Source: Chitinophagales bacterium (GTDB lineage Bacteria; Bacteroidota; Bacteroidia; Chitinophagales; Chitinophagaceae). From it: DNA of 64,000 bases. Under the pieces are notes generated by a model, which was not told the DNA's origin, did no database searches, and worked only from the letters and a program-made list of their open reading frames with translations. The stretch's first letter is position 1; every line of letters starts with the position of its first letter. Positions 2 to 53,506 of the stretch are shown piece after piece. The position numbers and the translations under genes are program-made. The DNA is taken from positions 14,619 through 78,618 of the forward strand of contig JBBRCW010000001.1 of NCBI GenBank assembly GCA_038204535.1, given 5' to 3'.

Positions 2-580
2 GCCACCGTTGAAGACAAGATGCGCAATGCCATGTATCGCACCGAAAAAACCAGGAAACTGGAGCAGGAGAACCATAGTTCATACAACGAATTTTTACAG
101 TCGCTGCACATAAAAGTAACCACCAGGCCCATAGAAGAACGGGATATTGACAGGGCATTGCAATTGGGGCTGCGTACCAACCAGTTTAATATGAATGGCA
201 TCAGGCCCGAAAGGGAACTGATTAAAAGCCATATATTAAGCGAACAACGGCTGGGATGGATGATAGACGTGGCCGACCGCTTTGGTGACTATGGCACAGT
301 TGGATTGCTGCTGGGCACACATAATATGGCTACCTTACAATTGCAAACATTTTTATTGAGTTGCAGGGTGCTGGGCAGAGGCGTTGAAAAAATCATATGG
401 CAAAACGTTCATCAATATTGCGTAACTCATTCGTTGAACGATATAATGCTTCGGTTTCAGACAACTTCAAAAAATAAGCCCTTTGAAATTTTTTTAGCAT
501 CCTCAGGGGTGCAGTGGAGCAACGACAGCCAAAATTGGCATTCAACAGTTAAATATTCTATAGAAGAAATTGGGATTTAA
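2..580 (+). CDS. fkbH: FkbH-like protein (HAD-IIIC glyceryl transferase/phosphatase with C-terminal GNAT-like domain), 5'-truncated by the window edge
   Basis: The frame is open from base 2 (ATVEDKMRNAMYRTEKTR resembles the FkbH T.ED..R..MY..E..R motif), so the ORF-track start at 20 is internal. FkbH C-terminal motifs present: QLGLRTNQFN, DRFGDYGTVG, FLLSCRVLGRGVE. Stop at 578-580, 3 nt before the next ATG. Confidence 0.85.
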   Translation, partial: ATVEDKMRNAMYRTEKTRKLEQENHSSYNEFLQSLHIKVTTRPIEERDIDRALQLGLRTNQFNMNGIRPERELIKSHILSEQRLGWMIDVADRFGDYGTVGLLLGTHNMATLQLQTFLLSCRVLGRGVEKIIWQNVHQYCVTHSLNDIMLRFQTTSKNKPFEIFLASSGVQWSNDSQNWHSTVKYSIEEIGI

Positions 581-39400: not shown

Positions 39401-42400
39401 AGGAGCGTGGCTTGGCGAAAGATTACCCCAGTATATGATACCGCAAGTGTGGGTAACATTACAAAGCCTGCCCTTAACCCCCAATGGAAAAATTGACCGA
39501 AGGGCTCTTGCGGAAATTGAACACAACCAATTGACCGGATACAGTACAAAATACAAGGCGCCTCAGACTAAATTCGAAATAGAGACTGCAGCCATATGGG
39601 GCGAACTTTTGGGCAGAGAGCAAGTAGGTTCAGAGGACAATTTTTTCGAGTTGGGCGGCGACAGTATATTAACCATACAGGCAGTAAGCCGCACCAACAG
39701 GCTGGGCTACCACCTGCAGCCCAAAGACATTTTTGAGCACCAAACAATCAGGCGCCTGGGCAAAGCGCTCGCCGACAGAAAAGCCGCCGCCATTACAGGT
39801 GAACAGGGACGCCTGGAAGGTTTTTCGGGGCTGTTGCCCATACAGCAGGAGTTTTTGAATAGTGAACATATTGAGCCATCGCATTATAACCAAAGTGTGC
39901 TTTTAAGTATCAGCCAAAGTGTTGATAAAGACACGCTGCAGCAGGCGGCGGAGCTATTGTTGCAGCATCATGATGCACTTAGGTTCCGCTATTTTCAGCA
40001 GGATGGACACTGGAAGCAATCGTATGGCGATGCCACAGGAAAATTATATACGGAAGACATAAGAAACGCAGGCAATCCCTCCACCGCTATCAACGAGATA
40101 GCCAACCGCTACCATCGCACGCTGGATATTGCGAAGGGCGACCTCGTAAGGCTGGTTTTGATTCAAATGCAGGAGGAAGTGAACAGTGAAGAATCATTAA
40201 TGAATAGTGAAGAACGAATAGTGAATAATGAAGAATCATTAGTGAATAGTGAAGAGCGAATAGTGAATAGTGAAGAAGGAGCATCTCTAAGCAATCGCCA
40301 ACTCACAACTCACAACTCACAACTCACAACTCACAACTCACCACTCACCACCACTCACATCTCACCACTCACAACTCACCACTCACCACTCACATCTCAC
40401 CACAAAAATCGTCTGCTGATTATCATCCATCATTTAGCGGTAGATGGCGTTTCGTGGCGCATAATGCTTCAAGACCTGGAAATATTACTGCATGCCGCGG
40501 AAAAAGGGCAACTGCTAAAGGCAAACCTGCTGGGTGCCAAAACGAGCAGTTACCGGCAATGGTTTACCGCGCTGGAGCAATATGGCCAAAGCAAAAGGGT
40601 ACTTAACCAGGCCGGCTTTTGGAAACAGGTGAAAAGTCACCAAAGCCGTTTGCCCACCGATTCAACCTTTGACGGAGTAATAAAAGTAAAAGACCTCGGC
40701 CACTGCCAGGTAACCTTTGACGCCGATAAAACAAAGAGCCTGCTGCAAGACATCCCCAAAGTGTACCAAACCGGAATGAACGATTTATTGTTAGCTGCAC
40801 TTGCCCGCACCTTTAGCCAGCAGCGGCAAACCCGCCAACTGCTGATTGGTTTAGAAGGTCATGGCAGACAAGAGATTGCTGAAGGTATTGATACCAGCCA
40901 TACAGTCGGCTGGTTTACCAGTTTATATCCCCTTTTGCTCGATACCGAAAATTGTACAAACGACGACCAGTTAATAAAAGCGGTTAAGGAACAGTTACGT
41001 GCCATACCCGGCAAAGGGCTTGGTTATGGTGTGCTTAAATATATCAGCAAAGAGGATGCGCTGAAAGGCAATGAACAATACGACATTTTGTTCAATTACC
41101 TGGGCCAGTTAGATAATGTAGTAACAAGCAGCCGTTTCTTTAGCGCGGCGCCCGAAAGCACCGGGCAGGGTAGAAGTCCGGAAATGGTAGTCAAAGAAAA
41201 GATATCACTGAGCGGCCATGTTTCCGATGGTCGTCTGGTACTTAATTGGAGCTACAGTAAAAAACATTTTGAGGAAGCCACTATCCAAAATATAGCTGAA
41301 AGCTACCTGGGCCACCTGGCGGATATTTTGCAGCATTGCCAAAACCAGGGCCGCGTTTGCACCCCGTCCGATTTTGGTATTGCTAAAGAAGTAAGTTATA
41401 CTGAACTCGACGCCTTTTTACAAACTGAAGTGAACGGCCGGCCGCTTGGCACCCAATTCGAAAGCCTCTGCCGGTTAAGTGGTTTGCAGCAAGGCATGCT
41501 TTTCCACAGCCTGTATGGTGCCAATGGAACTGCGTATGTGCAGCAGCTTAGCTGTTTGCTGCATAATGCGGATATAACAGCGTTCAGGGCAGCATGGCAG
41601 CAAGTAGTGGATCGCCACAGTATTTTACGTACCGCGTTTTTCGCCAGTTCTTTGCCTATACCTGTTCAGGTAGTAATGAAAAATGTATTTGTAAATGTGG
41701 ATGAAAAAGACCTGACACATCTTGCGGAACAGGAACAACAAAATTCCATTGTTGCTTTTGAACAGGCCGACAGACAGCAAGGCTTTCGTTTTGACGAAGC
41801 ACCGCTAATGCGGCTTACATTATTAAAGGTTAAAGGTGGCCACCAAATGGTGTGGACTTATCATCACCTGGTGAGCGATGGTTGGTCGCTGCCAGTAATG
41901 ATGCAGGAATTTCTCCAGAATTACGATCAGCACCGGGCAGGTTTTCACTTAGCGGGGGAACTTCAAATGGAGGACCGTTACGAAGATTACATACATTTCA
42001 TAAATAACACTGACGAAGAAGGAGAAGAAAATTACTGGCGTCATTACCTGCAAAGCGCTGACGGGCCAACGCTGCTGCCTTTTATTAGCTCATCGTCTGA
42101 CCGCAATAAAACCGAAGGCCAATACGTAAATGAGCACCTGCGGTTAGATGCCGATGCCAGTGCCCTTGTTCATCGCTATGCCAGGCAGCATCGCCTTACA
42201 GTTAATACCATTATGCAAGGCGTTTGGTCCTTTTTGTTAAGCCGGTACACAGGCAACGCTCATGTAACCTATGGCATTGTCGTCTCGGGCCGTCCCGACA
42301 GTTTGCCCGAAGTGGAGAACCGCGTTGGTTTGTATATTAATACGCTTCCGTTGCATGCCGCCGTACCGGCAGATGCCGGTATAGCCCAATGGCTAAACGA

Positions 42401-44636
42401 AATACAGCAAGGACAGGTTAATAGTTTACCATGGCAATTCACGCCATTATCAAAAATTCAAAGCTGGACAGAGGTAAAAGGCGGTATGTTCGACAGCCTT
42501 TTGGTTTTTGAAAACTATCCCATTAATAAATTGCTCACCGATCGTCAGTGGGGGCTAAAAGCTACGAACATAAAGGTAGAAGAGCAGACCAATTACCCGC
42601 TGAACCTGGTTGTGCAAAGCGCACAGCAGATACACATCACCTTTAATTATAACTGCGATTTGCTGGCTTCTAACTACGCAGCAGCCATAAGAGACCATTT
42701 TGCGCAAGTGTTGGATGAGGTAATTAAAGGAGCGGAAAAGCTATCGCAGTTAAACTTAATGAGCGAAAAAGCCCGGCTTCAGCTAATAAATACCGGCCTT
42801 GGCCCCAAATTCGACTATCCCCAAAATAAAACCCTTAGCCAGCTTTTTGAAGAGCAGGTACAAAAGTCGCCTGACAATATTGCCCTGGTGTATGAAGAAC
42901 GTCACTTGACCTATCAACAACTAAACGAACGTGCCAACCAGGTGGCGCATTTTCTTAGAAGCAAGGGTGTAACGGCCGAAATGCTGGTGCCTGTTTGTTT
43001 AGAAAGAAGTGTTGAAGTGATCGTGGCCATGCTGGCCATAGTGAAAGCAGGTGGTGCTTACGTGCCGATCGATCCATCGTACCCGCAGGAACGAATACGG
43101 TTTATGATTAAGGATACCGGGGCCAAAATGGTTATTAGCAGCAGCGAATTAGAAGGCAAACTAACTTTTGATACGGAAGGTGGATTAAATAATTCAGCGT
43201 TACCAGACATAATTTGCCTCGATAAGGCTGAACAGGAAATCAACCGGCATCCAGTTGAGAATATTCAGCCCGTTTCGGGCAGCAATAACCTGGTGTATGT
43301 AATCTATACTTCGGGTTCTACCGGAAAACCCAAAGGTGTTATGGTGGAACATCGTAATTTGATGAATTTGATTTTCTGGCATATATCGCATTACGAATTG
43401 AATGCATCGGCCAAAGCCACCTGCCTGGCAGGAATTGGTTTTGACGCGTTTGGCTGGGAAGTTTGGCCGTACCTGGCAGCAGGGGCATCGGTCTTTCTAA
43501 TTTCAAATGAAACGAGGAGTTCCTATCTGCAGCTCACAAATTATCTTTTGGAGCACGATATCACCCATAGCTTTATTCCAACTGCGATTGTACCCGATGT
43601 AATTAGTTACGCGAAAAACATATTAATAAATTTGAGGTTTTTATTAACCGGAGGCGACAAACTTTCGTCATTAGATATAGACGGTTTAAATTTTAAGGTA
43701 TTCAATAACTATGGGCCAACAGAAAATACGGTAGTGGCAACCAGTTATTGCTTATCCATGCACGATAAAATTTTGAATCCTGCTATTGGTAAACCTGTAG
43801 CAAATGCCAGTGTTTATATTGTGGATAAAGATAAAAAACTGGTTGTAGAAGGGGCTTTAGGCGAAATTTGGATCGGGGGTGATAGTTTGGCGAGGGGATA
43901 TTGGAACCAGCCGGATATAACACTTCAAAAGTTTAAGCCGGATCCTTTTTCGAATCTGCCAGGTGCCAGGATCTATAAAACCGGCGATCTTGGCAAATGG
44001 TTACCAGGCGGAAAAATTGAATTTGCCGGAAGAATTGATAACCAGATTAAATTAAGAGGTTTTAGGATTGAATTGGGCGAAATTGAAAATGTAATAATGC
44101 AAAGTGGCCTTGTTCGGCAGGTAGTTGTGATATTAAAGGAAAATGATTTATTAAATAAGAATCTGGTAGCTTATGCGGTTTTTTCGCATAAAGGCACGCG
44201 GGATCAAATAATGCGGTATTTGCAGAATCAATTACCTGCTTATATGGTGCCGGCAGCCATGATCGGTCTTCATGAGTTACCTTTAACCGCTAATGGTAAG
44301 ATTGATAGCAAGGCTTTGAGGTTGAGAAATGATGAATCTGAAAAAAGTGTATATGTTGGGCCGGAAAACGAAACAGAAGAAAAATTGGTTGAAATTTGGG
44401 AAAAACTTTTAAATGTTAATAAAGTTGGGATCTATGATAATTTTTTCGATTTGGGAGGAAATTCTATAATGATCATGAGAATGGTTGCATCCATTGAAAA
44501 AGAGTTGTCATTAACTATTCCAATGAAGGTCATTTTTCAATCAAAATGTATAAAAGATTTAAGTAAATATTTTGAAATTCAGTCTGGTCAAAAGTGGGTA
44601 GAAAATTCGGAAGCTTTTGAGGTGATTGATGTATAG
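36468..44636 (+). CDS. NRPS subunit 4 (2722 aa): docking domain-[C(DCL)-A11(Ala)-T-E]-[C(DCL)-A12(Leu)-T]
   Basis: DCL-type C starts (YRLSGLQQGMLFH; FHHLLFDGWS, YHHLVSDGWS). A11 code DLFNNALTYK, A12 code DAWFLGNVVK. Carriers GGDS (before E) and GGNS. E domain HHLAVDGVSW / EGHGRQ. Confidence 0.96.
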   Translation: MGIQEFIEHLRQNQFSLIADNDKLLLKGDKRKTPGEKGAPINPGDFIVNYIKSNKQALIEYLSDTTSDILQQKNTRNIESMYRLSGLQQGMLFHGLYDAGVKTYTNQFFCDIKNVQLDVFKKSWAVVLDRYTILRSAFFYDTFKVPVQCVFRQVEMPVEVIDVSDKNDASIDALFQEYLETDRNKGFDFKAPPLMRVTLFKKDSGTFKMLWTFHHLLFDGWSLPVIIGELLKTYEILVSGGEVNRDVDHFRDYINYLDQIDRELEKKYWVNYLKGLEYGTVMPFASAAQDRNKGAGLYKTNSVNLNVNETAGIIAFVQKNKITVNTLMQGVWASLLHQYTGNKQVVFGVIVSGRPEDLSDVEQRVGMYINTLPLKAVFDDEQTISGWLQQLQREQISSRQFQYTPLQKIKEWSGLKDELFDSLLVFENYPVSELLSSKKWAIGFDNISFKENTNFPFTILVSQSSQINISFSYNADIIGDNDAAAIRNHFTTLLQNLVLNSNQPPGSLSLLSDSERRQILHDFQGRKALFKKESLVTLFEQQVAVSLSKPAIISGDRTITYQELNERANRLGHYLQSLGAKKDSLVPVFMDRDIEMVVALLAILKCGAAYVPVDVSYPQQRVDYMIKDSGAAWVLCSTTVSDRLQHIEGVQVIEIDKEVQFNLHPISDLHLTISLHDLAYVMYTSGSTGQPKGVMIEHKSVSTFIQWCHQEFAQSDIETVYGGTSVCFDLSVFEIFFSLTAGKRLRILQNGLQAAAYLQTDQKVLLNSVPSVIESLLKEQAGFSNVTVINMAGEPVPVYVQQHLDQDRIEVRNLYGPTEDTTYSTVYRMRKGQPLYIGKPIANTNVFIVNPQMQLLPPGIAGEICIGGDGLARGYLNREDLTKEKFLPNSFYNELKERLYKTGDLGRWLPDGNIEYLGRKDDQVKIRGYRIELGEIESVLQQNESISQAAVLAIASDQGSRLLAAYVVPAAGYNKEQLGAWLGERLPQYMIPQVWVTLQSLPLTPNGKIDRRALAEIEHNQLTGYSTKYKAPQTKFEIETAAIWGELLGREQVGSEDNFFELGGDSILTIQAVSRTNRLGYHLQPKDIFEHQTIRRLGKALADRKAAAITGEQGRLEGFSGLLPIQQEFLNSEHIEPSHYNQSVLLSISQSVDKDTLQQAAELLLQHHDALRFRYFQQDGHWKQSYGDATGKLYTEDIRNAGNPSTAINEIANRYHRTLDIAKGDLVRLVLIQMQEEVNSEESLMNSEERIVNNEESLVNSEERIVNSEEGASLSNRQLTTHNSQLTTHNSPLTTTHISPLTTHHSPLTSHHKNRLLIIIHHLAVDGVSWRIMLQDLEILLHAAEKGQLLKANLLGAKTSSYRQWFTALEQYGQSKRVLNQAGFWKQVKSHQSRLPTDSTFDGVIKVKDLGHCQVTFDADKTKSLLQDIPKVYQTGMNDLLLAALARTFSQQRQTRQLLIGLEGHGRQEIAEGIDTSHTVGWFTSLYPLLLDTENCTNDDQLIKAVKEQLRAIPGKGLGYGVLKYISKEDALKGNEQYDILFNYLGQLDNVVTSSRFFSAAPESTGQGRSPEMVVKEKISLSGHVSDGRLVLNWSYSKKHFEEATIQNIAESYLGHLADILQHCQNQGRVCTPSDFGIAKEVSYTELDAFLQTEVNGRPLGTQFESLCRLSGLQQGMLFHSLYGANGTAYVQQLSCLLHNADITAFRAAWQQVVDRHSILRTAFFASSLPIPVQVVMKNVFVNVDEKDLTHLAEQEQQNSIVAFEQADRQQGFRFDEAPLMRLTLLKVKGGHQMVWTYHHLVSDGWSLPVMMQEFLQNYDQHRAGFHLAGELQMEDRYEDYIHFINNTDEEGEENYWRHYLQSADGPTLLPFISSSSDRNKTEGQYVNEHLRLDADASALVHRYARQHRLTVNTIMQGVWSFLLSRYTGNAHVTYGIVVSGRPDSLPEVENRVGLYINTLPLHAAVPADAGIAQWLNEIQQGQVNSLPWQFTPLSKIQSWTEVKGGMFDSLLVFENYPINKLLTDRQWGLKATNIKVEEQTNYPLNLVVQSAQQIHITFNYNCDLLASNYAAAIRDHFAQVLDEVIKGAEKLSQLNLMSEKARLQLINTGLGPKFDYPQNKTLSQLFEEQVQKSPDNIALVYEERHLTYQQLNERANQVAHFLRSKGVTAEMLVPVCLERSVEVIVAMLAIVKAGGAYVPIDPSYPQERIRFMIKDTGAKMVISSSELEGKLTFDTEGGLNNSALPDIICLDKAEQEINRHPVENIQPVSGSNNLVYVIYTSGSTGKPKGVMVEHRNLMNLIFWHISHYELNASAKATCLAGIGFDAFGWEVWPYLAAGASVFLISNETRSSYLQLTNYLLEHDITHSFIPTAIVPDVISYAKNILINLRFLLTGGDKLSSLDIDGLNFKVFNNYGPTENTVVATSYCLSMHDKILNPAIGKPVANASVYIVDKDKKLVVEGALGEIWIGGDSLARGYWNQPDITLQKFKPDPFSNLPGARIYKTGDLGKWLPGGKIEFAGRIDNQIKLRGFRIELGEIENVIMQSGLVRQVVVILKENDLLNKNLVAYAVFSHKGTRDQIMRYLQNQLPAYMVPAAMIGLHELPLTANGKIDSKALRLRNDESEKSVYVGPENETEEKLVEIWEKLLNVNKVGIYDNFFDLGGNSIMIMRMVASIEKELSLTIPMKVIFQSKCIKDLSKYFEIQSGQKWVENSEAFEVIDV
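40179..40406 (+). repeat. In-frame bipartite tandem-repeat insertion in E domain 3 (about 76 aa)
   Basis: Five 21-nt units (VNSEESL/MNSEERI type), a short spacer, then a long actcaca/actcacc heptamer run. Same position as in E1 and E2. Confidence 0.93.
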
Positions 44637-44662: not shown

Positions 44663-47600
44663 ATGAAACAAACGTTTAACAAAATAGTTGATATTATATA
44701 TACCGCCCGAAAAGATGGCGTTGAATTTGTGTTGAATGGCGACAAATTGCAACTTAGGTATGCTGAAAAGAAAACGATCGATAAAGAGTTACTCCAGGAG
44801 ATAAAGGACAACAAACTTGAAATAATTGATTTTTTAAGAAACGATAGTTGGAAAACACGTGCGGTTAATGGCGCGCCTAAATTGATAGGAGCCTTTGATA
44901 GAAATGATGTTTCTCAAATTCCACTCTCGTTCGCCCAGGAGAGATTGTGGTTTATAGACAAATTACAGGGAAGTATCCAATACCATACAGTAGTCGCATT
45001 AAGATTAAAAGGCAATTTAAGCCGGCAGGCACTGGAGCATGCCCTGGAGCGTTTGATTGAACGACACCAGGTTTTACGCACGGTCTATTATGAGTTAGAG
45101 GGGGTTGTATATCAAAAAATTAAAGAAGCAACCGAATGGAAACTTTCGTGGGATGATGGTCTGTTCGGCAATGCGGATAACCATGTGCTTGAAAGAAAAA
45201 TAAACGAGCTGATTAGCCAGCCATTTCATCTTGATAGAGATTATATGTTTAGGGCCACGCTGCTGGCGCTTGATGACAATGAATTTTTATTGGTGGCGGT
45301 AGTTCATCACATTGCCTGCGATGCATGGTCTGCCCCGATTATTGTAAAAGAGGTAGCAGACTTTTACAGCAGGTTTACAAAAGGTGAAACTGCGCCTTTT
45401 GCCTCTTTGCGCCTGCAATTCGCCGATTATGCGGTTTGGGAAAGAGCCCATCATACAAAAGACTATCTGCAGCCAAAAATTGACTATTGGAAACAGAAGC
45501 TTGATGGTTTTTCGCCTCTTCAGCTCCCGTACGATTTTGATGCTCCGGTAGTAAGATCAGCAAAAGGCGACAGTATAAGCTATAAGATTGATGCTGAGGT
45601 GGTTGCAAAATTAAATGACATATGCAGGCAGAATGACTGTAGCCTTTATATGTTGCTGCTGGCCGCATACAATATTTTGCTTTACAGGTATAGTAACCAA
45701 ACCGATATTACGGTAGGCGCATCTGTGGCCAATAGAAACCAGGCTGAAATAGAAGAGCTGGTAGGTTTTTTTGTAAATACGGTTGTCTTCCGCAATCAAA
45801 TTGAAAGCAACAGAAGTTTCATTGATTTATTAAACCAGGTCAAAGCCACTACCATTGGGGCATACGAAAATCAGGACGTTCCGTTTGAAAAGGTGGTAGA
45901 AAATGTTTTAAAGGAAAGAGAAAGCAGCAAAGCATCATTGTTTCAGGTGATGCTTGTTTTTCTGAATACCCCGGGAGGAGACAGAAAAGCATTGGGGGAA
46001 CTTGAAATTACCGGGGAACCTGTTCGGTCATCTGTTTCAAAATTCGACTTTACCTTTTTTATTGCCGAAACGCTTCCCGGGCTCTCAATAACAGTAGAAT
46101 ACAGCACAGAATTATTTAAAGAAGCCACCATTTTTCAGTTGCTGCAACATTTTGATAAACTGCTTCAGGAAATTACCATTGATCCAAATAGGTCTGTCTC
46201 ATCGCTGCCCATGCTTACAGATAAACAGCGGCATAAACTGGTAAACGACTATGGCTTCAGCTCCGTGGCCTTACCAGCAGAAAACAACATTGTTTCGCTT
46301 TTTGAAAATGAGGTTAGAAAAAAGCCGGGTATTGCTGCGGTTAAATTTGAGGGAGAAAAAATGACCTACGGGCAATTGAACAAAAGGGTCAATCAGGTAG
46401 CGCATTATTTAAGATCTAAAGGTATTGGGCCTGATAAATATGTTCCAATTATAGCGGAACCTGGTTTGGATCTCGTGGTAGGCATTCTTGGTATTTTGAA
46501 ATCGGGCGGCGCTTATGTACCCATAGATACCGCATTACCTGCCGAACGAATTGGTTTTATAACAAAGGATACCGGCGCTTCAATTGTTCTGGTAACCCCA
46601 AAGCAAAGGCACAAAATTGAAGTGTCTGATTTTTCGTCGTTGATCGTATTACAAACCGATGAGGCTGCATTTGAAACCCAGCCTGGTACCGATCCCGAAC
46701 CAGTTATTAATAATGACCATCTGGCCTATGTTATTTATACCTCCGGATCTACCGGCACGCCAAAAGGTGTAATGATTACGCACCGGTGCTTAGTGGATTA
46801 TTTTTACGGAATTGCTGATAAGCTGCCGGTGAAGCTTTGCAATTCGTTCGCGCTTTTATCATCGGCAGCTACCGATTTGGGTAACACGGTTATTTATAGC
46901 GCATTCTTAACGGGCGGATGCCTTCATCTCTTTTCTGCTGAAACTTTAAGTGACGCCTATGCGTTGCACAGCTATTTTGATGAGCATAGTATAGATTGCA
47001 TAAAGATTGTTCCATCGCATTGGAACGCCCTGGAGATAGAGGAGAAAAAATTACTGCCAAACAATTTATTGATTTTTGGCGGCGAAGTTTTATACACCGA
47101 TTCAGTAAAGAATATTTTATCTGCCAATCCAAATCTCACTGTTGTCAACCATTATGGTCCAACTGAAACAACTATTGGAAAGTTGTTGCATGTTTTAGAT
47201 AGAAATGCTGTTTACGGAAATACAATTCCGCTGGGCAGGCCGTTTGGAAATACAAGCGTATATGTGTTGTCGAACGACATGAAACTATCGCCTGTTGGCG
47301 TGCCAGGCAAACTATTTATTGCAGGCCAAGGCTTAGCAAAAGGTTACCTGAACAATGAAGCACTTACAAATGAAAAATTTGTTTCCAATCCAATTGACGG
47401 CAATAAATATGATATTGTTTACAATACCGGCGATATTGTAAAATATTTACCCGACGGTAATATCTTATTTATCAACAGAGCCGATGACCAGGTAAAAATA
47501 AGGGGATACAGGGTAGAACCTGGAGAGGTTGAGGCCGCATTTCAATCAATAGATTCCATTAGGCAGGCTGTGGCTATAATTAAAGAGGATTCAAGCCGAA

Positions 47601-50600
47601 ACAAGAACCTGGTTGTTTTTGCAGTACCTGATAAGGCTTTTGACCATGAAGAAGTTTTAAATATTATAAAAGCGAAACTTCCTGATTACATGATTCCGGC
47701 TAAGATTGTTGAGCTGGAAAGTTTTCCATTAATGCCAAATGGAAAAGTAGATCGGCGAGCGCTTCAGTTTATTGATATTAAGTCAACTGGAAAATCAAAT
47801 AACGTAAATCCACGCAATAATACCGAAGCAAAACTTGTTGAAATTTGGATGGAGGTGTTAGAGTTGGATAACGTAGGAATCAACGATGATTTTTTTGAGC
47901 AAGGCGGACATTCGTTGCTGGCAATCAGGGTGGTTTCAGCTATTCGTAAAGCCTTTAAGGTAGAGTTGCCTATTGGCGATATTTTTGACTTTCCAACTAT
48001 CGCACTTCTTTCTGCACAGGTTGAAGCACGGAATGAAAATGAATTGTTGACAAGTATTAAGGCTATCACTCCCAGGCCGGATTATGTACCCCTTTCATTT
48101 AGCCAGGAGCGGCTTTGGTTTATTCATCAGCTTGGCGGAAGTGCTCAATATCATATTCCTGCGGTTTTTAAATTGGCAGGTTCACTGGATGTAAATGTTT
48201 TAAAAAATGCTTTTCACCAGGTAATAGAGCGGCACGAAGCACTTAGAACAGTTTTTATTACAAAGAACGATTTGCCCGGTCAATACCTTAAGAAAAGTGA
48301 AGATTGGCAATTATCAATTATAGCAAAGGAAATTGCCATTAAAAAGCAGGAGGAGATTATAGCTTCTATGGTAAATGAGCCTTTCGATCTTGAAAAAGAT
48401 TTTATGATAAGGGCTTGTGTATTAGAGCTGGATAAACCGGAATTTTTGCTGGTAATAAATCTACATCATATTGCTTCAGATGCGTGGTCATCTTCACTGT
48501 TCGTAAAGGAAATTACTGAAATATACAACGCGCAATTCGAAGGCCGGGCTCCGGTTCTCCCCATTTTGCCCGTTCAATATGCCGACTATTCCATCTGGCA
48601 AAGAGAACAGGCAAAAAGCGAAAGCTGGAAGAAGAAAATAGAATTCTGGAAAAATTACCTGCAGCAAATTGACGTTTTACAATTGCCTGCCGATTTTGTA
48701 CGGCCAATGGTGCAAAGCCTGAATGGGGCAATGTTGCCGGTTGCTGTAAATAGCGAATTGGCTCATCAAGTTCGAAAATTAAACATGCGGCCTGGTACAA
48801 CCATGTACATGACTTTGCTTGGGGCCTTCAATTTGCTTTTATATAAGTATACCAACCAGACTGATATTTGTGTTGGTACGCCAGTGGCCGGTAGACAAAT
48901 GCAGGAAATTGAAAGTCTGATAGGTTTTTTTATAAACACCGTTGTGGTGCGTACCCGTATCAACGAACAGGAAACATTTTCTGATCTTTTATATAATGTC
49001 AGGGAAAATACGCTTTCCATGACTCCCTACCACGACATTCCATTCGAAAAGGTAGTTGAAGCAACTGTCAGCGAAAGAGACATAAGCAGAAATCCAATTT
49101 TCCAGGTGGCCTTCAGTTATCAAAGTATCGGCGAAGGCGACACCGGGCACCTAAAAAATATTACACTTAAGCCTTTTAATTCAAAAGGAACGGAACATAA
49201 AACTTCCAAATTCGATATAACCTTTAATATCACTGAAAGTCAAAATAATTTATTTCTTTCTGTTGAGTACTGCACCGACCTGTTTAAGGAAGAGACCATA
49301 CAAAGAATGATAGCTAATTACATCCAGCTGTTATCGGTGGTTTGTAAGAATTCTGATATCCCTTTAAATCAAATATCGGTTATCACCCCTGCAGAACAGG
49401 ATCAACTAAACCGTTTGAATGATACTTACCGTGATATTCCTTCTGATTTAGGTTTGGTGCAATTGTTTAAACAGCGCATAGCTGCTGCACCTGAAACTAT
49501 TGCAATCGTTGATAATCATACAAAAGTTACCTATAGGCAATTAGATGAAAGGTCAAACCAGGTTGCTAATCAATTATCGACTGGCGGAATAAAAGAAGGG
49601 GCATCTATAGCGTTAATTGCCAACCGTGGTATCGACATGATTGTCGCCATTTGGGGTATTATTAAACTCGGTTGTACTTATGTTCCGTTGAATATTGACT
49701 TTCCAACAGAAAGGTTACAATTTATTGTTGAGAACGCTAATGCAGCCGCTGTTGTATGTACAGATGCCAGTCTGCTTCAAACTAAAACCATAACAGGGTG
49801 CAAGACTTTTTGTGTTGCCGGGGCCGAAACATTTGAAAGAAGTTTTGAACCGAAAGCTTATCTGCCCCAAACGCCGGTTTACATAATGTTCACAAGCGGC
49901 ACTACCGGTAAGCCAAAGGGAATAAAGGTAAGCCAACAAAATATAGTGAACCTGGCATGTCAGCAAAATGAAATCAGGGTGCGCCAAAATGATGTATTGC
50001 TGCAATGGTCTGATTACGGATTCGATGGCAGCATCTACGAAATTTTTGGCGCTCATTTAAATGGTGCCTCTTTGTGTCTATTACAGGAAGGAATGGCTGC
50101 CAATGTTGAGGCCATGGCAAAAGTAATCATTGACAACAAGGTTTCGGTATGCTTTATAACCACCGCTATTTTCAATGCAATTGCCGATACTGACCCTTTT
50201 ATATTAAAGGGCCTGCGAAAGGTGTTGTTTGGGGGAGAAGCTGTTTCTTCTTTTCACGTTCGAAAAGTGATTGGGATCATAGGTGCCGACAAAATTGTTC
50301 ACGTTTACGGGCCTACCGAAACAACGGTATATGCTACCAGCTGCCCTTTAAACCAGGTGAATGAGAATGAAATAATTCCTATTGGAAGACCGCTGAATAA
50401 TGTGAAAGCTTTTGTTTTAGATCAGAATAAAAATCCGGTTCCAATAGGTGCACCTGGCGAATTGTACATAGGTGGCAAGGGTGTATCCATGGGTTATTCT
50501 AATAATGAAGCCTTAACCGGTGAGAAGTTCTTAAGTTTATTTATCGTAAATAGTATAGAAAGACTTTATAAAACGGGAGACATTGTAAGATGGAACAGCA

Positions 50601-53506
50601 ATGGTTTACTTGAATTTATGGGTCGAATAGATGACCAGGTTAAAATTCGCGGTTATCGGATTGAGCCATCCGAGATCGGGAATGTGCTGCAGGATAATGT
50701 GATGGTACAATCGGCATTTGTAAATGTTAGAAATTACCGAGGTTTTAAATCGCTGGTAGCCTATGTTATTCCGGGAGCTAATTTTGAAAGACCAAAACTC
50801 ATCAATTGGTTAAAGTCGAAAGTGCCAGATTTTATGGTGCCTGCCTATTGGGTTGAGATGGAGGGTTTTCCCTTAACAGCCAATGGAAAGATTGACAAAA
50901 ATGCGCTGCCCGAGCCGGCTATGGATGAACGGGATGCACGTAAACTGGAGGCCCCTTCTACCGATCTTGAAAGAAAATTGGCGGATATGTGGCAGTCGCT
51001 TTTAGGAATAAAAAATATTGGTGTCAATGATAATTTCTTTGAGATCGGTGCCGATTCTATCCTTACCATACAGTTTGCAAACCTTGCACGCAGAAATAAT
51101 ATCGAAATTCAGCCGAGGGATATTTTTGTTTACCAAAGCATTTCTCAATTAGCGGTATTTATAGCAGAAAATGCAGGAGTAAAAATTAATGGCGAACAAG
51201 AGCTTTTAACCGGAAATGCCGGATTGTTACCTGTTCAGCAATGGTTTTTTGAAAATACAGGCCCGGCTGTGTCTCATTTTAACCAGGCACTCATATTGGG
51301 TATCGAAAAGCAAATAACTCCCGACCAGCTAAACAGGGCCTGGAGTTTATTGATCAAACAACACGATGCCTTAAGATTTGTTTATTCTAAAAGTAATGGT
51401 AACTGGAGCCAGGAATACAGTAATCAATTACCTGCGGTGATAGTAGAGAATATTGAAACAGGTGACGAGGCTGCTTTAAGAACGAAATTGCTGGAAAGAT
51501 CAAATTATTTCCAGCAAAGTCTGGACATTTTTAAAGGCCAGATAATAAAAGTTGTATTATTTCAAACTCCTGGCTTCGAAAGCCGAAATCGTTTGTTAGC
51601 GGTAGTTCATCACCTGGCAATCGATGCAGTTTCGTGGAGAATATTGATTGAAAATCTTGAATATATTTTATCCGCAATAGTAAAAGGGGATGAACCGGAC
51701 CTGGGGAGTAAAGGTTCGTCGTACAGGCAATGGCACCAGGCGTTAGTGAAATATGGGCAGCAGCCAGCCGTAAAAAGAGAAGTTGAGTACTGGAAAGAAG
51801 AACAAAAAAAGTATCGGCCAATACAAAAAGGAAAAACAACTATTGGAAGGGTTCGAATTGGAGATATCAGGTCTCTATCAATGAATTTAAGCAGCGAACA
51901 GACCAGCATTTTGGTGAATGAAGTTCCGAAAGTTTATCAAACTGAAATAAATGATGTTTTATTAACCGGGCTTGCATTAGCTATTAAACAGTGGGGAGGA
52001 ATTAGCGATGTAACGATCGGAATGGAGGGATATGGCAGAAATGAAATAGATAAGGAAATTGACTTGAGCAGAACGGTAGGCTGGTTTACCACTATCTATC
52101 CGGTTGTTATAGAGACCGGCGATCATAGTCTTCCGGCGTCGCTTTTGCCGGTTGTTAAAAACGTACTTAGAAATTTGCCGGCCAAAGGCATTGGTTTTGG
52201 AGTTTTAAAATATATAAATAAAGATGAAAGGCTTGCTGATGTGCCAAAGTGGAATGTTGTTTTTAACTACCTCGGCCAACTGGATAGTGTGACCAGATCC
52301 GGGCAATGGATATCAGCAACGACTGATTCTGCTGGTAAATCGATTGGCGACGAGCATTTTGTTCAGGAAGATTTATCGCTAAACGGATCAATTCAAAACG
52401 GGCAGCTGTTTTTTAATATAGGGTACAATAGTAAAAACTTTTCTCAAAGCGACACCGAAGATTTTGTCAGTAAATTCCAGGCTATTCTTGAAGAACTGAT
52501 AAGCGCTGTTGCTTTAGAAAAAATTAAGTTTGAAGCCGACAAAACAACCTCATCGTTTGCTGCGGCTAATCCGTTGGAAGAAATTATAGAAGAGGATTTG
52601 ATTAAGAGTGCAAAAAACAAATATCTTATACCACTAAAGGCGGCTGGCAAAAAGAGCCCTTTGTATATAGTTGCTGGCGGGGGAGGCACAGCTACAAAAT
52701 TTATGCGTTTTGCAAGAATGTTAGACGAAGAGCAGCCTGTGTATGCATTGCAGCCACCGATTGATTATGATGATCTGAAAGCTTTTCCGGATACGATTGA
52801 AAAGATCGCCGAGGTATTTGTAGCGGAAATTCTTTCGGTTGACCCAGATGGTCCATTTGCATTGTCTGGCCATTGCACCGGGGGAAAAATCGCTTTTGAA
52901 ATGGCTAAGCAACTAAAAGCGGCCGGCAAAGAAGTATCTATGCTCGCTATGTTTGATACCTTGATCGGACGAAAATTTGTTGATGAGAAGCCGTCCTTAA
53001 AAAACTACTATAAAATTCCGGCAACTTTTAAATCGATTATAGCAAGTGTAAAATTGAAAATTGACTTTGAAACCTATTTATTGCGAAAACATACTAAAAA
53101 AGCCATTCTCTATAAATTAAATTCGCTCCAAAACTTTTTCAAACATCATTTTGGCAAGCGATCAAATAACGATTTGAAGACTTATGATGAATATGAGATA
53201 TTCTTTAAAACCTCCGAACACTACACTAAGGCCAGCAGAAAATACCAAATGGCGCCCTATGATGATGCGATTATCCTTTTTTATGCAAAAGAACGTTACT
53301 ATTTTGTAGATGTTAATAATAAGATCAATTTTAAAAAGATAGATTTGGACATTGGATCGCAGCATGCCTGGGAGGATTATGCAACAAAAGTGATGTTATA
53401 TGAGATAAAGGGAGAACATTCCAATATTTTTGAAAGCATACATGGCGATGAGTTTGCAATGATCTTACAAGAGCAGTTAAATAAATCATCACTGTTAAAC
53501 AAATGA
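44663..53506 (+). CDS. NRPS subunit 5, termination (2947 aa): docking domain-[C-A13(Asp)-T]-[C-A14(Ile-like)-T-E]-TE
   Basis: TubC_N-like N-terminus. A13 code DLTKIGHIGK (Asp). A14 code DGYFLGVVYK (one residue from the Ile code DGFFLGVVYK). Carrier GADS, E domain HHLAIDAVSW. C-terminal alpha/beta-hydrolase TE with GHCTG, AMFDT and GEHSNIF. Confidence 0.96.
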   Translation: MKQTFNKIVDIIYTARKDGVEFVLNGDKLQLRYAEKKTIDKELLQEIKDNKLEIIDFLRNDSWKTRAVNGAPKLIGAFDRNDVSQIPLSFAQERLWFIDKLQGSIQYHTVVALRLKGNLSRQALEHALERLIERHQVLRTVYYELEGVVYQKIKEATEWKLSWDDGLFGNADNHVLERKINELISQPFHLDRDYMFRATLLALDDNEFLLVAVVHHIACDAWSAPIIVKEVADFYSRFTKGETAPFASLRLQFADYAVWERAHHTKDYLQPKIDYWKQKLDGFSPLQLPYDFDAPVVRSAKGDSISYKIDAEVVAKLNDICRQNDCSLYMLLLAAYNILLYRYSNQTDITVGASVANRNQAEIEELVGFFVNTVVFRNQIESNRSFIDLLNQVKATTIGAYENQDVPFEKVVENVLKERESSKASLFQVMLVFLNTPGGDRKALGELEITGEPVRSSVSKFDFTFFIAETLPGLSITVEYSTELFKEATIFQLLQHFDKLLQEITIDPNRSVSSLPMLTDKQRHKLVNDYGFSSVALPAENNIVSLFENEVRKKPGIAAVKFEGEKMTYGQLNKRVNQVAHYLRSKGIGPDKYVPIIAEPGLDLVVGILGILKSGGAYVPIDTALPAERIGFITKDTGASIVLVTPKQRHKIEVSDFSSLIVLQTDEAAFETQPGTDPEPVINNDHLAYVIYTSGSTGTPKGVMITHRCLVDYFYGIADKLPVKLCNSFALLSSAATDLGNTVIYSAFLTGGCLHLFSAETLSDAYALHSYFDEHSIDCIKIVPSHWNALEIEEKKLLPNNLLIFGGEVLYTDSVKNILSANPNLTVVNHYGPTETTIGKLLHVLDRNAVYGNTIPLGRPFGNTSVYVLSNDMKLSPVGVPGKLFIAGQGLAKGYLNNEALTNEKFVSNPIDGNKYDIVYNTGDIVKYLPDGNILFINRADDQVKIRGYRVEPGEVEAAFQSIDSIRQAVAIIKEDSSRNKNLVVFAVPDKAFDHEEVLNIIKAKLPDYMIPAKIVELESFPLMPNGKVDRRALQFIDIKSTGKSNNVNPRNNTEAKLVEIWMEVLELDNVGINDDFFEQGGHSLLAIRVVSAIRKAFKVELPIGDIFDFPTIALLSAQVEARNENELLTSIKAITPRPDYVPLSFSQERLWFIHQLGGSAQYHIPAVFKLAGSLDVNVLKNAFHQVIERHEALRTVFITKNDLPGQYLKKSEDWQLSIIAKEIAIKKQEEIIASMVNEPFDLEKDFMIRACVLELDKPEFLLVINLHHIASDAWSSSLFVKEITEIYNAQFEGRAPVLPILPVQYADYSIWQREQAKSESWKKKIEFWKNYLQQIDVLQLPADFVRPMVQSLNGAMLPVAVNSELAHQVRKLNMRPGTTMYMTLLGAFNLLLYKYTNQTDICVGTPVAGRQMQEIESLIGFFINTVVVRTRINEQETFSDLLYNVRENTLSMTPYHDIPFEKVVEATVSERDISRNPIFQVAFSYQSIGEGDTGHLKNITLKPFNSKGTEHKTSKFDITFNITESQNNLFLSVEYCTDLFKEETIQRMIANYIQLLSVVCKNSDIPLNQISVITPAEQDQLNRLNDTYRDIPSDLGLVQLFKQRIAAAPETIAIVDNHTKVTYRQLDERSNQVANQLSTGGIKEGASIALIANRGIDMIVAIWGIIKLGCTYVPLNIDFPTERLQFIVENANAAAVVCTDASLLQTKTITGCKTFCVAGAETFERSFEPKAYLPQTPVYIMFTSGTTGKPKGIKVSQQNIVNLACQQNEIRVRQNDVLLQWSDYGFDGSIYEIFGAHLNGASLCLLQEGMAANVEAMAKVIIDNKVSVCFITTAIFNAIADTDPFILKGLRKVLFGGEAVSSFHVRKVIGIIGADKIVHVYGPTETTVYATSCPLNQVNENEIIPIGRPLNNVKAFVLDQNKNPVPIGAPGELYIGGKGVSMGYSNNEALTGEKFLSLFIVNSIERLYKTGDIVRWNSNGLLEFMGRIDDQVKIRGYRIEPSEIGNVLQDNVMVQSAFVNVRNYRGFKSLVAYVIPGANFERPKLINWLKSKVPDFMVPAYWVEMEGFPLTANGKIDKNALPEPAMDERDARKLEAPSTDLERKLADMWQSLLGIKNIGVNDNFFEIGADSILTIQFANLARRNNIEIQPRDIFVYQSISQLAVFIAENAGVKINGEQELLTGNAGLLPVQQWFFENTGPAVSHFNQALILGIEKQITPDQLNRAWSLLIKQHDALRFVYSKSNGNWSQEYSNQLPAVIVENIETGDEAALRTKLLERSNYFQQSLDIFKGQIIKVVLFQTPGFESRNRLLAVVHHLAIDAVSWRILIENLEYILSAIVKGDEPDLGSKGSSYRQWHQALVKYGQQPAVKREVEYWKEEQKKYRPIQKGKTTIGRVRIGDIRSLSMNLSSEQTSILVNEVPKVYQTEINDVLLTGLALAIKQWGGISDVTIGMEGYGRNEIDKEIDLSRTVGWFTTIYPVVIETGDHSLPASLLPVVKNVLRNLPAKGIGFGVLKYINKDERLADVPKWNVVFNYLGQLDSVTRSGQWISATTDSAGKSIGDEHFVQEDLSLNGSIQNGQLFFNIGYNSKNFSQSDTEDFVSKFQAILEELISAVALEKIKFEADKTTSSFAAANPLEEIIEEDLIKSAKNKYLIPLKAAGKKSPLYIVAGGGGTATKFMRFARMLDEEQPVYALQPPIDYDDLKAFPDTIEKIAEVFVAEILSVDPDGPFALSGHCTGGKIAFEMAKQLKAAGKEVSMLAMFDTLIGRKFVDEKPSLKNYYKIPATFKSIIASVKLKIDFETYLLRKHTKKAILYKLNSLQNFFKHHFGKRSNNDLKTYDEYEIFFKTSEHYTKASRKYQMAPYDDAIILFYAKERYYFVDVNNKINFKKIDLDIGSQHAWEDYATKVMLYEIKGEHSNIFESIHGDEFAMILQEQLNKSSLLNK

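What the first reader, a model, noticed from the sequence alone, without database searches (positions are those of the whole stretch)
52620..53506. Terminal thioesterase has a cysteine nucleophile (GHCTG)
Seen: the nucleophile elbow reads ALSGHCTGGK (TGC at 52874-52876) instead of GxSxG. The Asp (AMFDT) and His (GEHSNIF) of the triad look intact, and a long Lys-rich lid region lies between them. Known: Cys-nucleophile type I TEs are a minority and include strained-ring-forming enzymes such as ObiF (obafluorin beta-lactone) and SulM (sulfazecin beta-lactam). Inference: release may involve non-standard chemistry, for example lactonisation onto a glycerate hydroxyl, rather than simple hydrolysis.
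Basis: partly seen in the sequence, partly recalled or inferred. Interest (0 to 1): 0.75.

Follow-up and report, generated by a model that had tools for sequence, protein, structure and literature searches.

The report
Cysteine-nucleophile NRPS release domain, clade-conserved
The last domain of a 14-module peptide synthetase really does use cysteine instead of serine as its catalytic nucleophile, but this is the conserved hallmark of an uncharacterised lineage of release enzymes in Chitinophagaceae-type soil and sediment bacteria, not a sign of beta-lactone or beta-lactam chemistry.

Summary
TGC at 52874-52876 encodes Cys94 in ALSGHCTGGK. Asp121 (AMFDT) and His275 (GEHSN) are present, with a 100-residue basic lid region within the 153 residues between them.

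The Cys is not an error. A syntenic orthologue and about 44 representative relatives all read GHCxGG, using both TGC and TGT. In an NJ tree they form one clade (44 Cys, 1 Ser). Named members are Segetibacter, Ferruginibacter, Ginsengibacter, Paraflavisolibacter and Mucilaginibacter. Ser relatives (GYSxGG) are all 38% identical or less.

The clade carries a co-varying active-site signature:
- GGGGT loop
- S-G-H-C elbow
- His-Ser
- an acidic residue after beta7
- a 13-residue insertion

The ObiF/SulM analogy is not supported:
- Asp sits at nucleophile+27 (EntF/AB3403 type), where ObiF1 has Gly.
- The last A domain is predicted to load Ile (then E), which has no beta-nucleophile.
- Clade members end lines of 2 to 14 modules with varied last residues.

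The closest solved structure is AB3403, which also has Cys and has no known product.

An FkbH fragment followed by a leading carrier domain supports a glyceryl starter. That keeps macrolactonisation possible, but it is untested.

Verdict: a real but ordinary-to-moderately interesting new member of the known Cys-TE kind.

The parts
52620..53503 (+). Type I thioesterase (TE) domain, C-terminal domain of NRPS-5
   Evidence: PF00975 E 2e-19. AF2 model with mean pLDDT 83 and an alpha/beta-hydrolase fold. Foldseek top hits are AB3403, Pks13 TE, Skyxy TE and EntF.
52874..52876 (+). TGC = Cys94, catalytic nucleophile in the elbow S-G-H-C-T-G-G after strand 88-93
   Evidence: Aligns with the Ser of EntF and Skyxy-TE and the Cys of AB3403. 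Cys in 44 of 45 clade members. Both TGC and TGT are used among relatives.
52955..52957 (+). GAT = Asp121, the presumed triad acid at the canonical position (nucleophile+27, directly after strand 114-120)
   Evidence: Aligns with the 'DT' Asp of EntF and AB3403. 43 Asp and 2 Glu among 45 clade members. ObiF1 has Gly1173 at this position (PMC6668435).
53417..53419 (+). CAT = His275, the triad histidine (GEHS)
   Evidence: His in 45 of 45 clade members and 69 of 70 relatives. Aligns with the GDHSS of AB3403.
52958..53257 (+). Lid region, residues 122-221, with three long helices (143-165, 167-186, 199-216); basic
53291..53293 (+). GAA = Glu233, an acidic residue 2-3 residues after core strand beta7 (FYAKE). 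It is the topological equivalent of the ObiF/SulM/RifR acid position. Its role is unknown.
   Evidence: Acidic in 39 of 45 clade members against 17 of 70 Ser relatives. The spacing to His is 42 residues, or 29 without the clade insertion.
53312..53350 (+). Clade-specific 13-residue insertion (VNNKINFKKIDLD, residues 240-252), predicted as a beta-hairpin after beta7 and preceded by the invariant Asp239
   Evidence: Absent from 66-69 of the 70 non-clade relatives, depending on the column. Alignment. Strands 222-239 and 244-249 in the model.
51200..52582 (+). Epimerisation domain of module 14, lying between the last carrier domain and the TE (PVQQWF, HHLAIDA, EGYGRN, RTVGWFT, FNYLGQ)
50960..51172 (+). 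Carrier (T) domain of module 14 (FFEIGADSI, Ser2132)
44663..53506 (+). NRPS-5: C-A(Asp)-T-C-A(Ile)-T-E-TE, 2947 aa
584..44636 (+). NRPS-1 to NRPS-4 (584-18388, 18516-25118, 25126-36453, 36468-44636), carrying modules 1-12. NRPS-1 starts with T then C.
2..580 (+). 3' part of an FkbH-family gene (glyceryl-carrier loading), cut by the window start
   Evidence: TIGR01686 E 7.8e-37, profile positions 150-320 of 323.

Best explanation
This is a working type I NRPS thioesterase with a Cys94-His275-Asp121 triad in the canonical EntF/AB3403 arrangement. It belongs to a coherent lineage of release domains found in Chitinophagaceae, with some Mucilaginibacter-labelled members, in which Cys replaced Ser long ago and the surrounding active site changed with it. 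The proposed mechanism is inferred by homology. The carrier domain of module 14 presents the glyceryl-capped 14-residue peptide first to the E domain, where the C-terminal Ile is epimerised, and then to the TE. The Cys94 thiolate attacks and forms a peptidyl-S-enzyme thioester. That intermediate is then resolved. The most likely route is attack by an intramolecular nucleophile to give a macrocycle, either a glycerate hydroxyl or the side chain of the unassigned residue 4. The less likely route is hydrolysis. A thioester acyl-enzyme favours capture by weak or hindered nucleophiles over water, as shown for BulbE-TE and ObiF. Four-membered ring formation is not expected.
For: Shown here:
- Motif and codon.
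- TE family and fold.
- Asp at nucleophile+27 aligned with the Asp of EntF and AB3403.
- Clade conservation: the top ~55 of 28,029 HMMER relatives read GHCxGG, and the NJ clade is 44 Cys to 1 Ser.
- 10 of 80 GTDB loci carry Cys, all from Chitinophagaceae or Chitinophagales.
- Both Cys codons are used.
- The syntenic orthologue L081 and loci L001-L003 and L009 have the same E-TE order and the same downstream genes.
- Co-varying signature positions.
- FkbH fragment plus a leading T domain.

From the literature:
- Cys-to-Ser turns BulbE-TE and ObiF into hydrolases (PMC11536411, PMC6668435).
- AB3403 has Cys with a position-I Asp (PMC11298585).
Against: - No member of this clade has a known product, so cyclisation versus hydrolysis is inference only.
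- The clade also terminates 2- and 3-module lines, where macrocyclisation is unlikely. The Cys therefore does not in itself predict a macrocycle.
- One clade member (P0055) has Ser, so the scaffold tolerates both residues.
- An acidic residue enriched at position 233 and the invariant Asp239 leave open a different acid partner for His275. The model coordinates could not be inspected.
- The A-domain specificities rest on Stachelhaus codes matched from memory.
- The codon is not covered by public contigs.
Confidence: 0.75

Rival explanations
1. The Cys is an inherited lineage trait with little chemical consequence. The TE simply hydrolyses the thioester and releases a linear N-glyceryl 14-residue peptide acid.
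For: Clade members sit on very different lines, including 2-3-module NRPSs, with varied last residues. One member carries Ser. No Ser, Thr or Dap module is predicted in this line. According to PMC11536411, oxoesters and thioesters hydrolyse at similar rates.
Against: 44 of 45 members retain Cys using both codons, and the active site is remodelled around it. That argues for selection rather than drift. In characterised Cys-TEs the Cys is needed for cyclisation and Ser variants hydrolyse (PMC11536411, PMC6668435). A free glycerate hydroxyl and an unassigned, probably cationic residue 4 are available as nucleophiles.
Confidence: 0.3
2. This is an ObiF/SulM-type TE that closes a strained beta-lactone or beta-lactam at the C-terminal residue.
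For: There is a Cys nucleophile. An acidic residue (Glu233) is enriched at the post-beta7 position in the clade, with ObiF-like spacing to His once the 13-residue insertion is discounted.
Against: Asp is present at nucleophile+27, where ObiF1 needs Gly and where G1173D/L mutants lose activity (PMC6668435). There is no Gln-Cys-Asn motif (PMC11298585); the elbow reads His-Cys-Thr. ObiF1 matches at E 0.05 and SulM gives no hit. The last A-domain code is Ile-like and identical in the orthologue. No hydroxylase is seen next to the TE.
Confidence: 0.03
3. The TGC is a sequencing or assembly error in a low-coverage metagenome bin, and the true residue is Ser.
For: Public contigs are only about 4x deep and leave a gap over the codon.
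Against: All close relatives and the syntenic orthologue encode Cys. The partner residue His93 and other signature positions of the Cys clade are also present in the window. TGC to a Ser codon needs a specific change (TCC or AGC).
Confidence: 0.01

Closest known systems
AB3403 (ABBFA_003403) termination-module TE, Acinetobacter baumannii, PDB 4ZXH/4ZXI
   Same: Cys nucleophile, Asp at nucleophile+27 (position I), and His followed by Ser (GDHSS). It is the best Foldseek hit (E 5e-16) and the best profile hit (E 4e-48 with T-TE). Its product is also unknown (PMC11298585, PMC10510592).
   Different: About 22% identity. The elbow reads GWCFGG, not GHCTGG. It comes from a gammaproteobacterial single C-A-T-TE module. 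It shows no special closeness beyond that of the Ser-type Skyxy-TE, so the Cys probably arose independently.
BulbE-TE (bulbiferamide, Microbulbifer)
   Same: A Cys/Asp/His triad with the Asp after beta6 (position I). It is a macrocyclising TE in which Cys cannot be replaced by Ser, and the Ser variant hydrolyses (PMC11536411).
   Different: It acts on a short ureidopeptide and uses a Trp indole nitrogen as the nucleophile.
ObiF1-TE and SulM-TE (beta-lactone and beta-lactam forming)
   Same: Cys nucleophile in a GxCxG elbow, and an enlarged lid.
   Different: Their catalytic Asp follows beta7, and position I is Gly (ObiF1 Gly1173). SulM has a Gln-Cys-Asn motif. Both act on di- or tripeptides with a beta-OH or beta-sulfamate on the last residue. 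Sequence similarity to this domain is marginal or undetectable.
Ser-type TEs of other Bacteroidota NRPSs (GYSxGG; Saprospiraceae, Pedobacter, Puia, Runella, Chitinophaga pinensis loci)
   Same: These are the nearest relatives outside the clade (30-38% identity). They share the fold, the FDT Asp, the GDH His, and a long basic lid.
   Different: They have a Ser nucleophile preceded by Tyr, a GAGLN loop instead of GGGGT, Lys rather than an acidic residue at position 233, and no 13-residue insertion.
Skyxy-TE (skyllamycin-type, PDB 7CRN/7DXO)
   Same: The best single-sequence PDB match (E 1e-14). It is a cyclising NRPS TE.
   Different: It has a Ser nucleophile, is annotated as a bifunctional epimerase/cyclase, and comes from an actinomycete.

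Membership tests
Type I NRPS/PKS thioesterase (PF00975, alpha/beta-hydrolase) | Profile match and alpha/beta-hydrolase fold at the C-terminus of a termination module | tested here: met
   PF00975 at 71-75 bits against a cut-off of 26.4. AF2 pLDDT 83, with Foldseek probability 1.0 to many TE structures.
Type I NRPS/PKS thioesterase (PF00975, alpha/beta-hydrolase) | Nucleophile elbow GxS/CxG after beta5, an acid, and His after beta8 | tested here: met
   GHCTG follows strand 88-93, Asp121 follows strand 114-120, and His275 lies at the end of strand 263-275. The 3D distances within the triad were not inspected.
Cys-nucleophile TEs with an EntF-like triad (AB3403, BulbE-TE) | Cys at the nucleophile position | tested here: met
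   Cys94 aligns with the AB3403 Cys in GGWCFGG.
Cys-nucleophile TEs with an EntF-like triad (AB3403, BulbE-TE) | Acid at position I (after beta6, nucleophile+27) | tested here: met
   Asp121 aligns with the 'IDT' and 'LDT' Asp of AB3403 and EntF. It is conserved in 43 of 45 clade members.
Cys-nucleophile TEs with an EntF-like triad (AB3403, BulbE-TE) | Cys required for cyclisation, with the Ser variant hydrolysing | not testable with these tools
   This needs enzyme assays of C94S and C94A.
Strained-ring Cys-TEs (ObiF, SulM) | No Asp at position I (Gly in ObiF1), with the catalytic Asp on the loop after beta7, about 30 residues before His | tested here: not met
   Asp is present at +27. Caveat: Glu233 occupies the post-beta7 position and is acidic in 39 of 45 clade members. 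Its geometry is untested.
Strained-ring Cys-TEs (ObiF, SulM) | Last residue carries a beta-hydroxyl, beta-amine or sulfamate (A-domain specificity) | tested here: not met
   The module-14 code is DGYFLGVVY (Ile-like), identical in orthologue P0016. The code assignment is from memory.
Strained-ring Cys-TEs (ObiF, SulM) | SulM-type Gln-Cys-Asn motif and Arg-rich pocket | tested here: not met
   The elbow reads His-Cys-Thr. The criteria come from PMC11298585.
FkbH-primed (glyceryl-starter) NRPS | FkbH domain next to a loading carrier domain followed by a C domain | tested here: inconclusive
   Only the C-terminal 171 profile positions of FkbH lie inside the window (127 bits against a cut-off of 146.65). 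T-C at the NRPS-1 N-terminus is present.

The most novel reading that the evidence does not exclude
The GHCxGG clade is a distinct, uncharacterised class of Bacteroidota release enzymes whose remodelled active site is specialised for difficult acyl transfers. The remodelling comprises Cys, a GGGGT loop, a gained acidic residue at the classical post-beta7 acid position, and a 13-residue hairpin. Hindered beta-branched or D-configured C-termini captured by weak hydroxyl nucleophiles such as an N-terminal glycerate would be examples of such transfers. The clade may use a hybrid or RifR-like acid geometry while keeping the EntF-type Asp.
Probability: 0.2. Interest if true: 0.6.

Novelty: new member of a known kind. 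Interest (0 to 1): 0.4.

Why it matters
Cys-nucleophile TEs are sought as biocatalysts for hard cyclisations, and only a handful have been characterised (ObiF, SulM, BulbE; AB3403 has been solved but has no known product).

This work shows a sizeable natural family, about 45 clusters at 50% identity, of Cys-TEs with the canonical Asp position. It has a clear sequence signature and at least two cultured hosts: Segetibacter koreensis (WP_018612579.1) and Paraflavisolibacter caeni LB-8.

That gives a tractable set for testing what a Ser-to-Cys switch buys in an otherwise ordinary TE. It also warns against reading 'GxCxG' alone as a predictor of beta-lactone or beta-lactam products in genome mining.

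Tried and rejected
- **Read-level confirmation of the codon.** Two sediment-metagenome runs hold the region, but their contigs leave 52851-52891 uncovered. The result is inconclusive.
- **Exact look-ups of the window's own proteins.** NRPS-5 and iPGM were not found in the collection, so the source organism is not identified beyond 'Chitinophagaceae-like'. The best TE relatives are 62-67% identical.
- **A test of whether FkbH always accompanies Cys-TEs.** It does not. FkbH was seen only in the window and next to the P. caeni TE (L008). The complete small clusters of S. koreensis (L082) and L084 have none within 10 kb of the gene.
- **The Lys-rich lid as a special feature.** Rejected, because the basic fraction is the same in the Ser relatives.
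- **A profile search of PDB to place Asp239 and Glu233 against known triads.** The alignments to AB3403 cover only the N-terminal half plus the His region. AF2 coordinates are not exposed, so which acid contacts His275 could not be measured.
- **Literature searches for a described Bacteroidota Cys-TE clade.** Nothing was found.
- **The minus strand and the 3' flank.** No competing ORF and no terminator-like site were found.
Full report
**Observation.** The ORF 44663..53506 (+, 2947 aa) ends in a thioesterase domain whose nucleophile elbow reads FALSGHCTGGK. CAT-TGC lies at 52871-52876. The presumed acid is Asp121 of the domain (AMFDT, GAT 52955-52957). The histidine is His275 (KGEHSNIF, CAT 53417-53419). 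Domain numbering starts at nt 52595. Pfam PF00975 matches with E about 1e-20, though only over the N-terminal half of the profile. An AlphaFold2 model built on 16 homologues has mean pLDDT 83 and a standard alpha/beta-hydrolase order of elements:
- strand 88-93, then Cys94
- strand 114-120, then Asp121
- three long lid helices (143-216)
- a long strand/hairpin (222-249)
- strand 263-275 ending at His275

The region between Asp and His is long (153 residues). Residues 122-221 hold 17 Lys and 4 Arg. No competing ORF or terminator-like element lies in or just after the region.

**Is the Cys real?** Direct read support could not be obtained. Two sediment-metagenome runs hold the locus at about 4x, but their contigs leave 52851-52891 uncovered. 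Comparative evidence is strong:
- A syntenic orthologue carries GHCTGG with TGT. This is L081, whose protein P0016 is 2942 aa with a TE 66% identical. It has the same downstream genes: Poly_export, Bac_transf, PAP2, DAO, QRPTase and iPGM.
- Ten further related loci encode Cys with TGC or TGT.
- An exhaustive HMMER search of 1.84 billion representative proteins found 28,029 relatives. The best ~55 (E of 1e-44 or lower) all read GHCxGG, except one that reads GHSAGG.
- A neighbour-joining tree of 115 full-length TE domains places the window in one clade of 45 sequences, 44 with Cys and 1 with Ser.
- Among one-genome-per-species GTDB contigs, Cys occurs in 10 of 80 related loci. All are labelled Segetibacter, Ferruginibacter, Chitinophagaceae, Chitinophagales or Paraflavisolibacter caeni. 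Every locus at 38% identity or less (Saprospiraceae, Pedobacter, Puia, Runella, Winogradskyella and others) has GYSxGG or GFSxGG.
- Source names for other members add Ginsengibacter, Segetibacter koreensis (WP_018612579.1) and Mucilaginibacter.

**A clade signature.** Columns that are at least 80% conserved in the clade and at most 25% outside it cluster around the active site:
- Gly31-Thr32 (GGGGT versus GAGLN, the loop after beta3)
- Ser91 and His93 (His in 45 of 45, against Tyr outside)
- Cys94
- Ser276 directly after the catalytic His, which AB3403 also has (DHSS)
- Tyr230 and Tyr235

Three looser features accompany these: an acidic residue at 233 (39 of 45 against 17 of 70, where Lys is the commonest), the invariant Asp239, and a 13-residue insertion at 240-252 that is absent from nearly all other relatives. 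The Cys therefore sits in a remodelled, long-standing active site. The basic lid is not part of this signature, because the K+R fraction is 0.19 both inside and outside the clade.

**The assembly line.** Five NRPS genes carry 14 adenylation domains.
- NRPS-1 begins with a carrier domain followed by a C domain.
- The window's first 580 nt encode the C-terminal part of an FkbH domain (TIGR01686, E 8e-37, profile positions 150-320 of 323). This supports a glyceryl starter.
That segment returned the published Phe code DAWTIAAIC, which checks the numbering.
- The predicted order is aromatic, Asn, Ala(+E), unassigned (DAEHIGEVT), Leu, Asp, a beta-amino-acid-like unit (VDSVTSIAD), Gly, unassigned (DPLYLAQVV), Asn(+E), Ala(+E), Leu, Asp, Ile(+E). 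The residue names are matched from memory.
- No Ser, Thr or Dap module is predicted.
- The terminal order is T-E-TE. The terminal E domain keeps its core motifs.

**Comparison with known Cys-TEs.** By sequence, the best PDB matches are Skyxy-TE (Ser) and AB3403. AB3403 also has Cys (GGWCFGG) and its Asp at the same spacing. By fold and by profile, AB3403 is the top hit. The literature states that ObiF1 and SulM place the catalytic Asp after beta7. ObiF1 has Gly1173 at nucleophile+27, and introducing a side chain there impairs loading. AB3403 and BulbE-TE keep the Asp after beta6 (PMC6668435; PMC11298585; PMC11536411). This domain has Asp at +27. ObiF1 matches only at E 0.05, and SulM does not match at all. 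With an Ile-type last module, beta-lactone or beta-lactam formation is excluded for practical purposes.

**One caveat remains.** Glu233 lies 2-3 residues after core strand beta7. Its spacing to His (42 residues, or 29 without the clade insertion) matches the 30-residue Asp-His spacing of ObiF1 and SulM. Which acid contacts His275 needs coordinates, and I could not access them.

**What the clade does elsewhere.** Clade members terminate very different lines:
- single C-A-T-TE proteins
- 2-3-module NRPSs, often with a His-like code
- 4-module proteins
- this 14-module line

Their last residues are predicted as Val (commonest), Ile, Leu, Thr, Ala, aromatic or cationic. Most are T-TE; E-TE occurs only in the window's close orthologues. 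FkbH is not a constant partner. It sits next to the P. caeni TE together with an MBOAT gene (L008), but it is absent within 10 kb of the S. koreensis gene and of one MAG gene. The Cys is thus a lineage trait and not an adaptation to this substrate.

**Mechanism.**
- Shown: a TE with Cys, His and Asp in the EntF-like linear arrangement, under purifying selection.
- Inferred by homology: transthioesterification from the module-14 carrier to Cys94 after epimerisation, followed by resolution of the thioester.
- Inferred from characterised Cys-TEs (BulbE, ObiF; the engineered Pik TE as cited in PMC6668435): the thioester favours capture by weak nucleophiles over hydrolysis.

For this product the candidate nucleophiles are the glycerate hydroxyls or the side chain of residue 4. 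I put macrocyclisation at roughly even odds, hydrolysis at about 0.3, and four-membered ring formation at about 0.03.

**Verdict.** The domain is a new member of the known Cys-nucleophile TE kind. Its added value is that it belongs to a sizeable, uncharacterised, taxonomically restricted clade with a recognisable signature and cultured representatives.

Noticed in passing
window 10750-10894 and 10957-11018; 35208-35284 and 35334-35391; 40178-40277 and 40299-40400: In-frame 21-nt and 7-nt tandem repeats lie inside the three internal epimerisation domains (modules 3, 10, 11), just upstream of HHLAVDG. They encode (S/N)EERIVN heptads and QLTTDNS/PLTTHHS repeats, an insert of about 70-110 aa that is absent from the terminal E domain.
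   Followed up: partly
window 2-580: This is the C-terminal part of an FkbH-family gene cut by the window edge, directly upstream of an NRPS that starts with T-C. It implies a glyceryl starter unit.
   Followed up: partly
window 44663-53506 versus 584-44636: NRPS-5 has lower GC (about 0.40) than NRPS-1 to NRPS-4 (0.43-0.465). Its C domains read HHIA[CS]DAWS instead of DGWS, and its E domain is divergent from the other three. This suggests a different origin or recombination of the last two modules.
   Followed up: no
window modules 2/10, 3/11, 5/12, 6/13 (A domains at NRPS-1 aa 1777, 2838, 5492; NRPS-2 aa 683; NRPS-3 aa 2793; NRPS-4 aa 684, 2281; NRPS-5 aa 693): Four pairs of modules share identical Stachelhaus codes (Asn, Ala, Leu, Asp in the same order). 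This indicates an internal duplication of a module block.
   Followed up: no
window about 23700-24600 (NRPS-2, second A domain, A3 motif at aa 1736): An unusual A domain: its code is VDSVTSIAD with the Asp235 position shifted, and it reads NIYGSSE instead of NxYGPTE. It looks like a beta-amino-acid activator.
   Followed up: no
L008 792-8533 (Paraflavisolibacter caeni LB-8): A C-A-T-TE with the intermediate elbow GYCVGG is followed directly by a full FkbH gene and an MBOAT O-acyltransferase gene.
   Followed up: partly
L077 4240-8997 (Ferruginibacter MAG): A Ser-type A-T-TE gene (GFSAGS) lies immediately upstream of a Cys-type T-TE gene (GHCIGG), next to a phage-type integrase.
   Followed up: no
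run X2, loose end at window 52895: A contig from the same sediment metagenome continues as SGHCLGGIIA, which is another Cys-clade TE from a different organism in the sample.
   Followed up: no
P0025 (L082), P0026, P0033, P0036 (L084), P0040: These form a recurrent family of 2-3-module NRPSs ending in the Cys-TE and containing a His-like A-domain code (DSACIAEVW). The S. koreensis copy is flanked by a PPTase and a C39-peptidase ABC exporter.
   Followed up: partly
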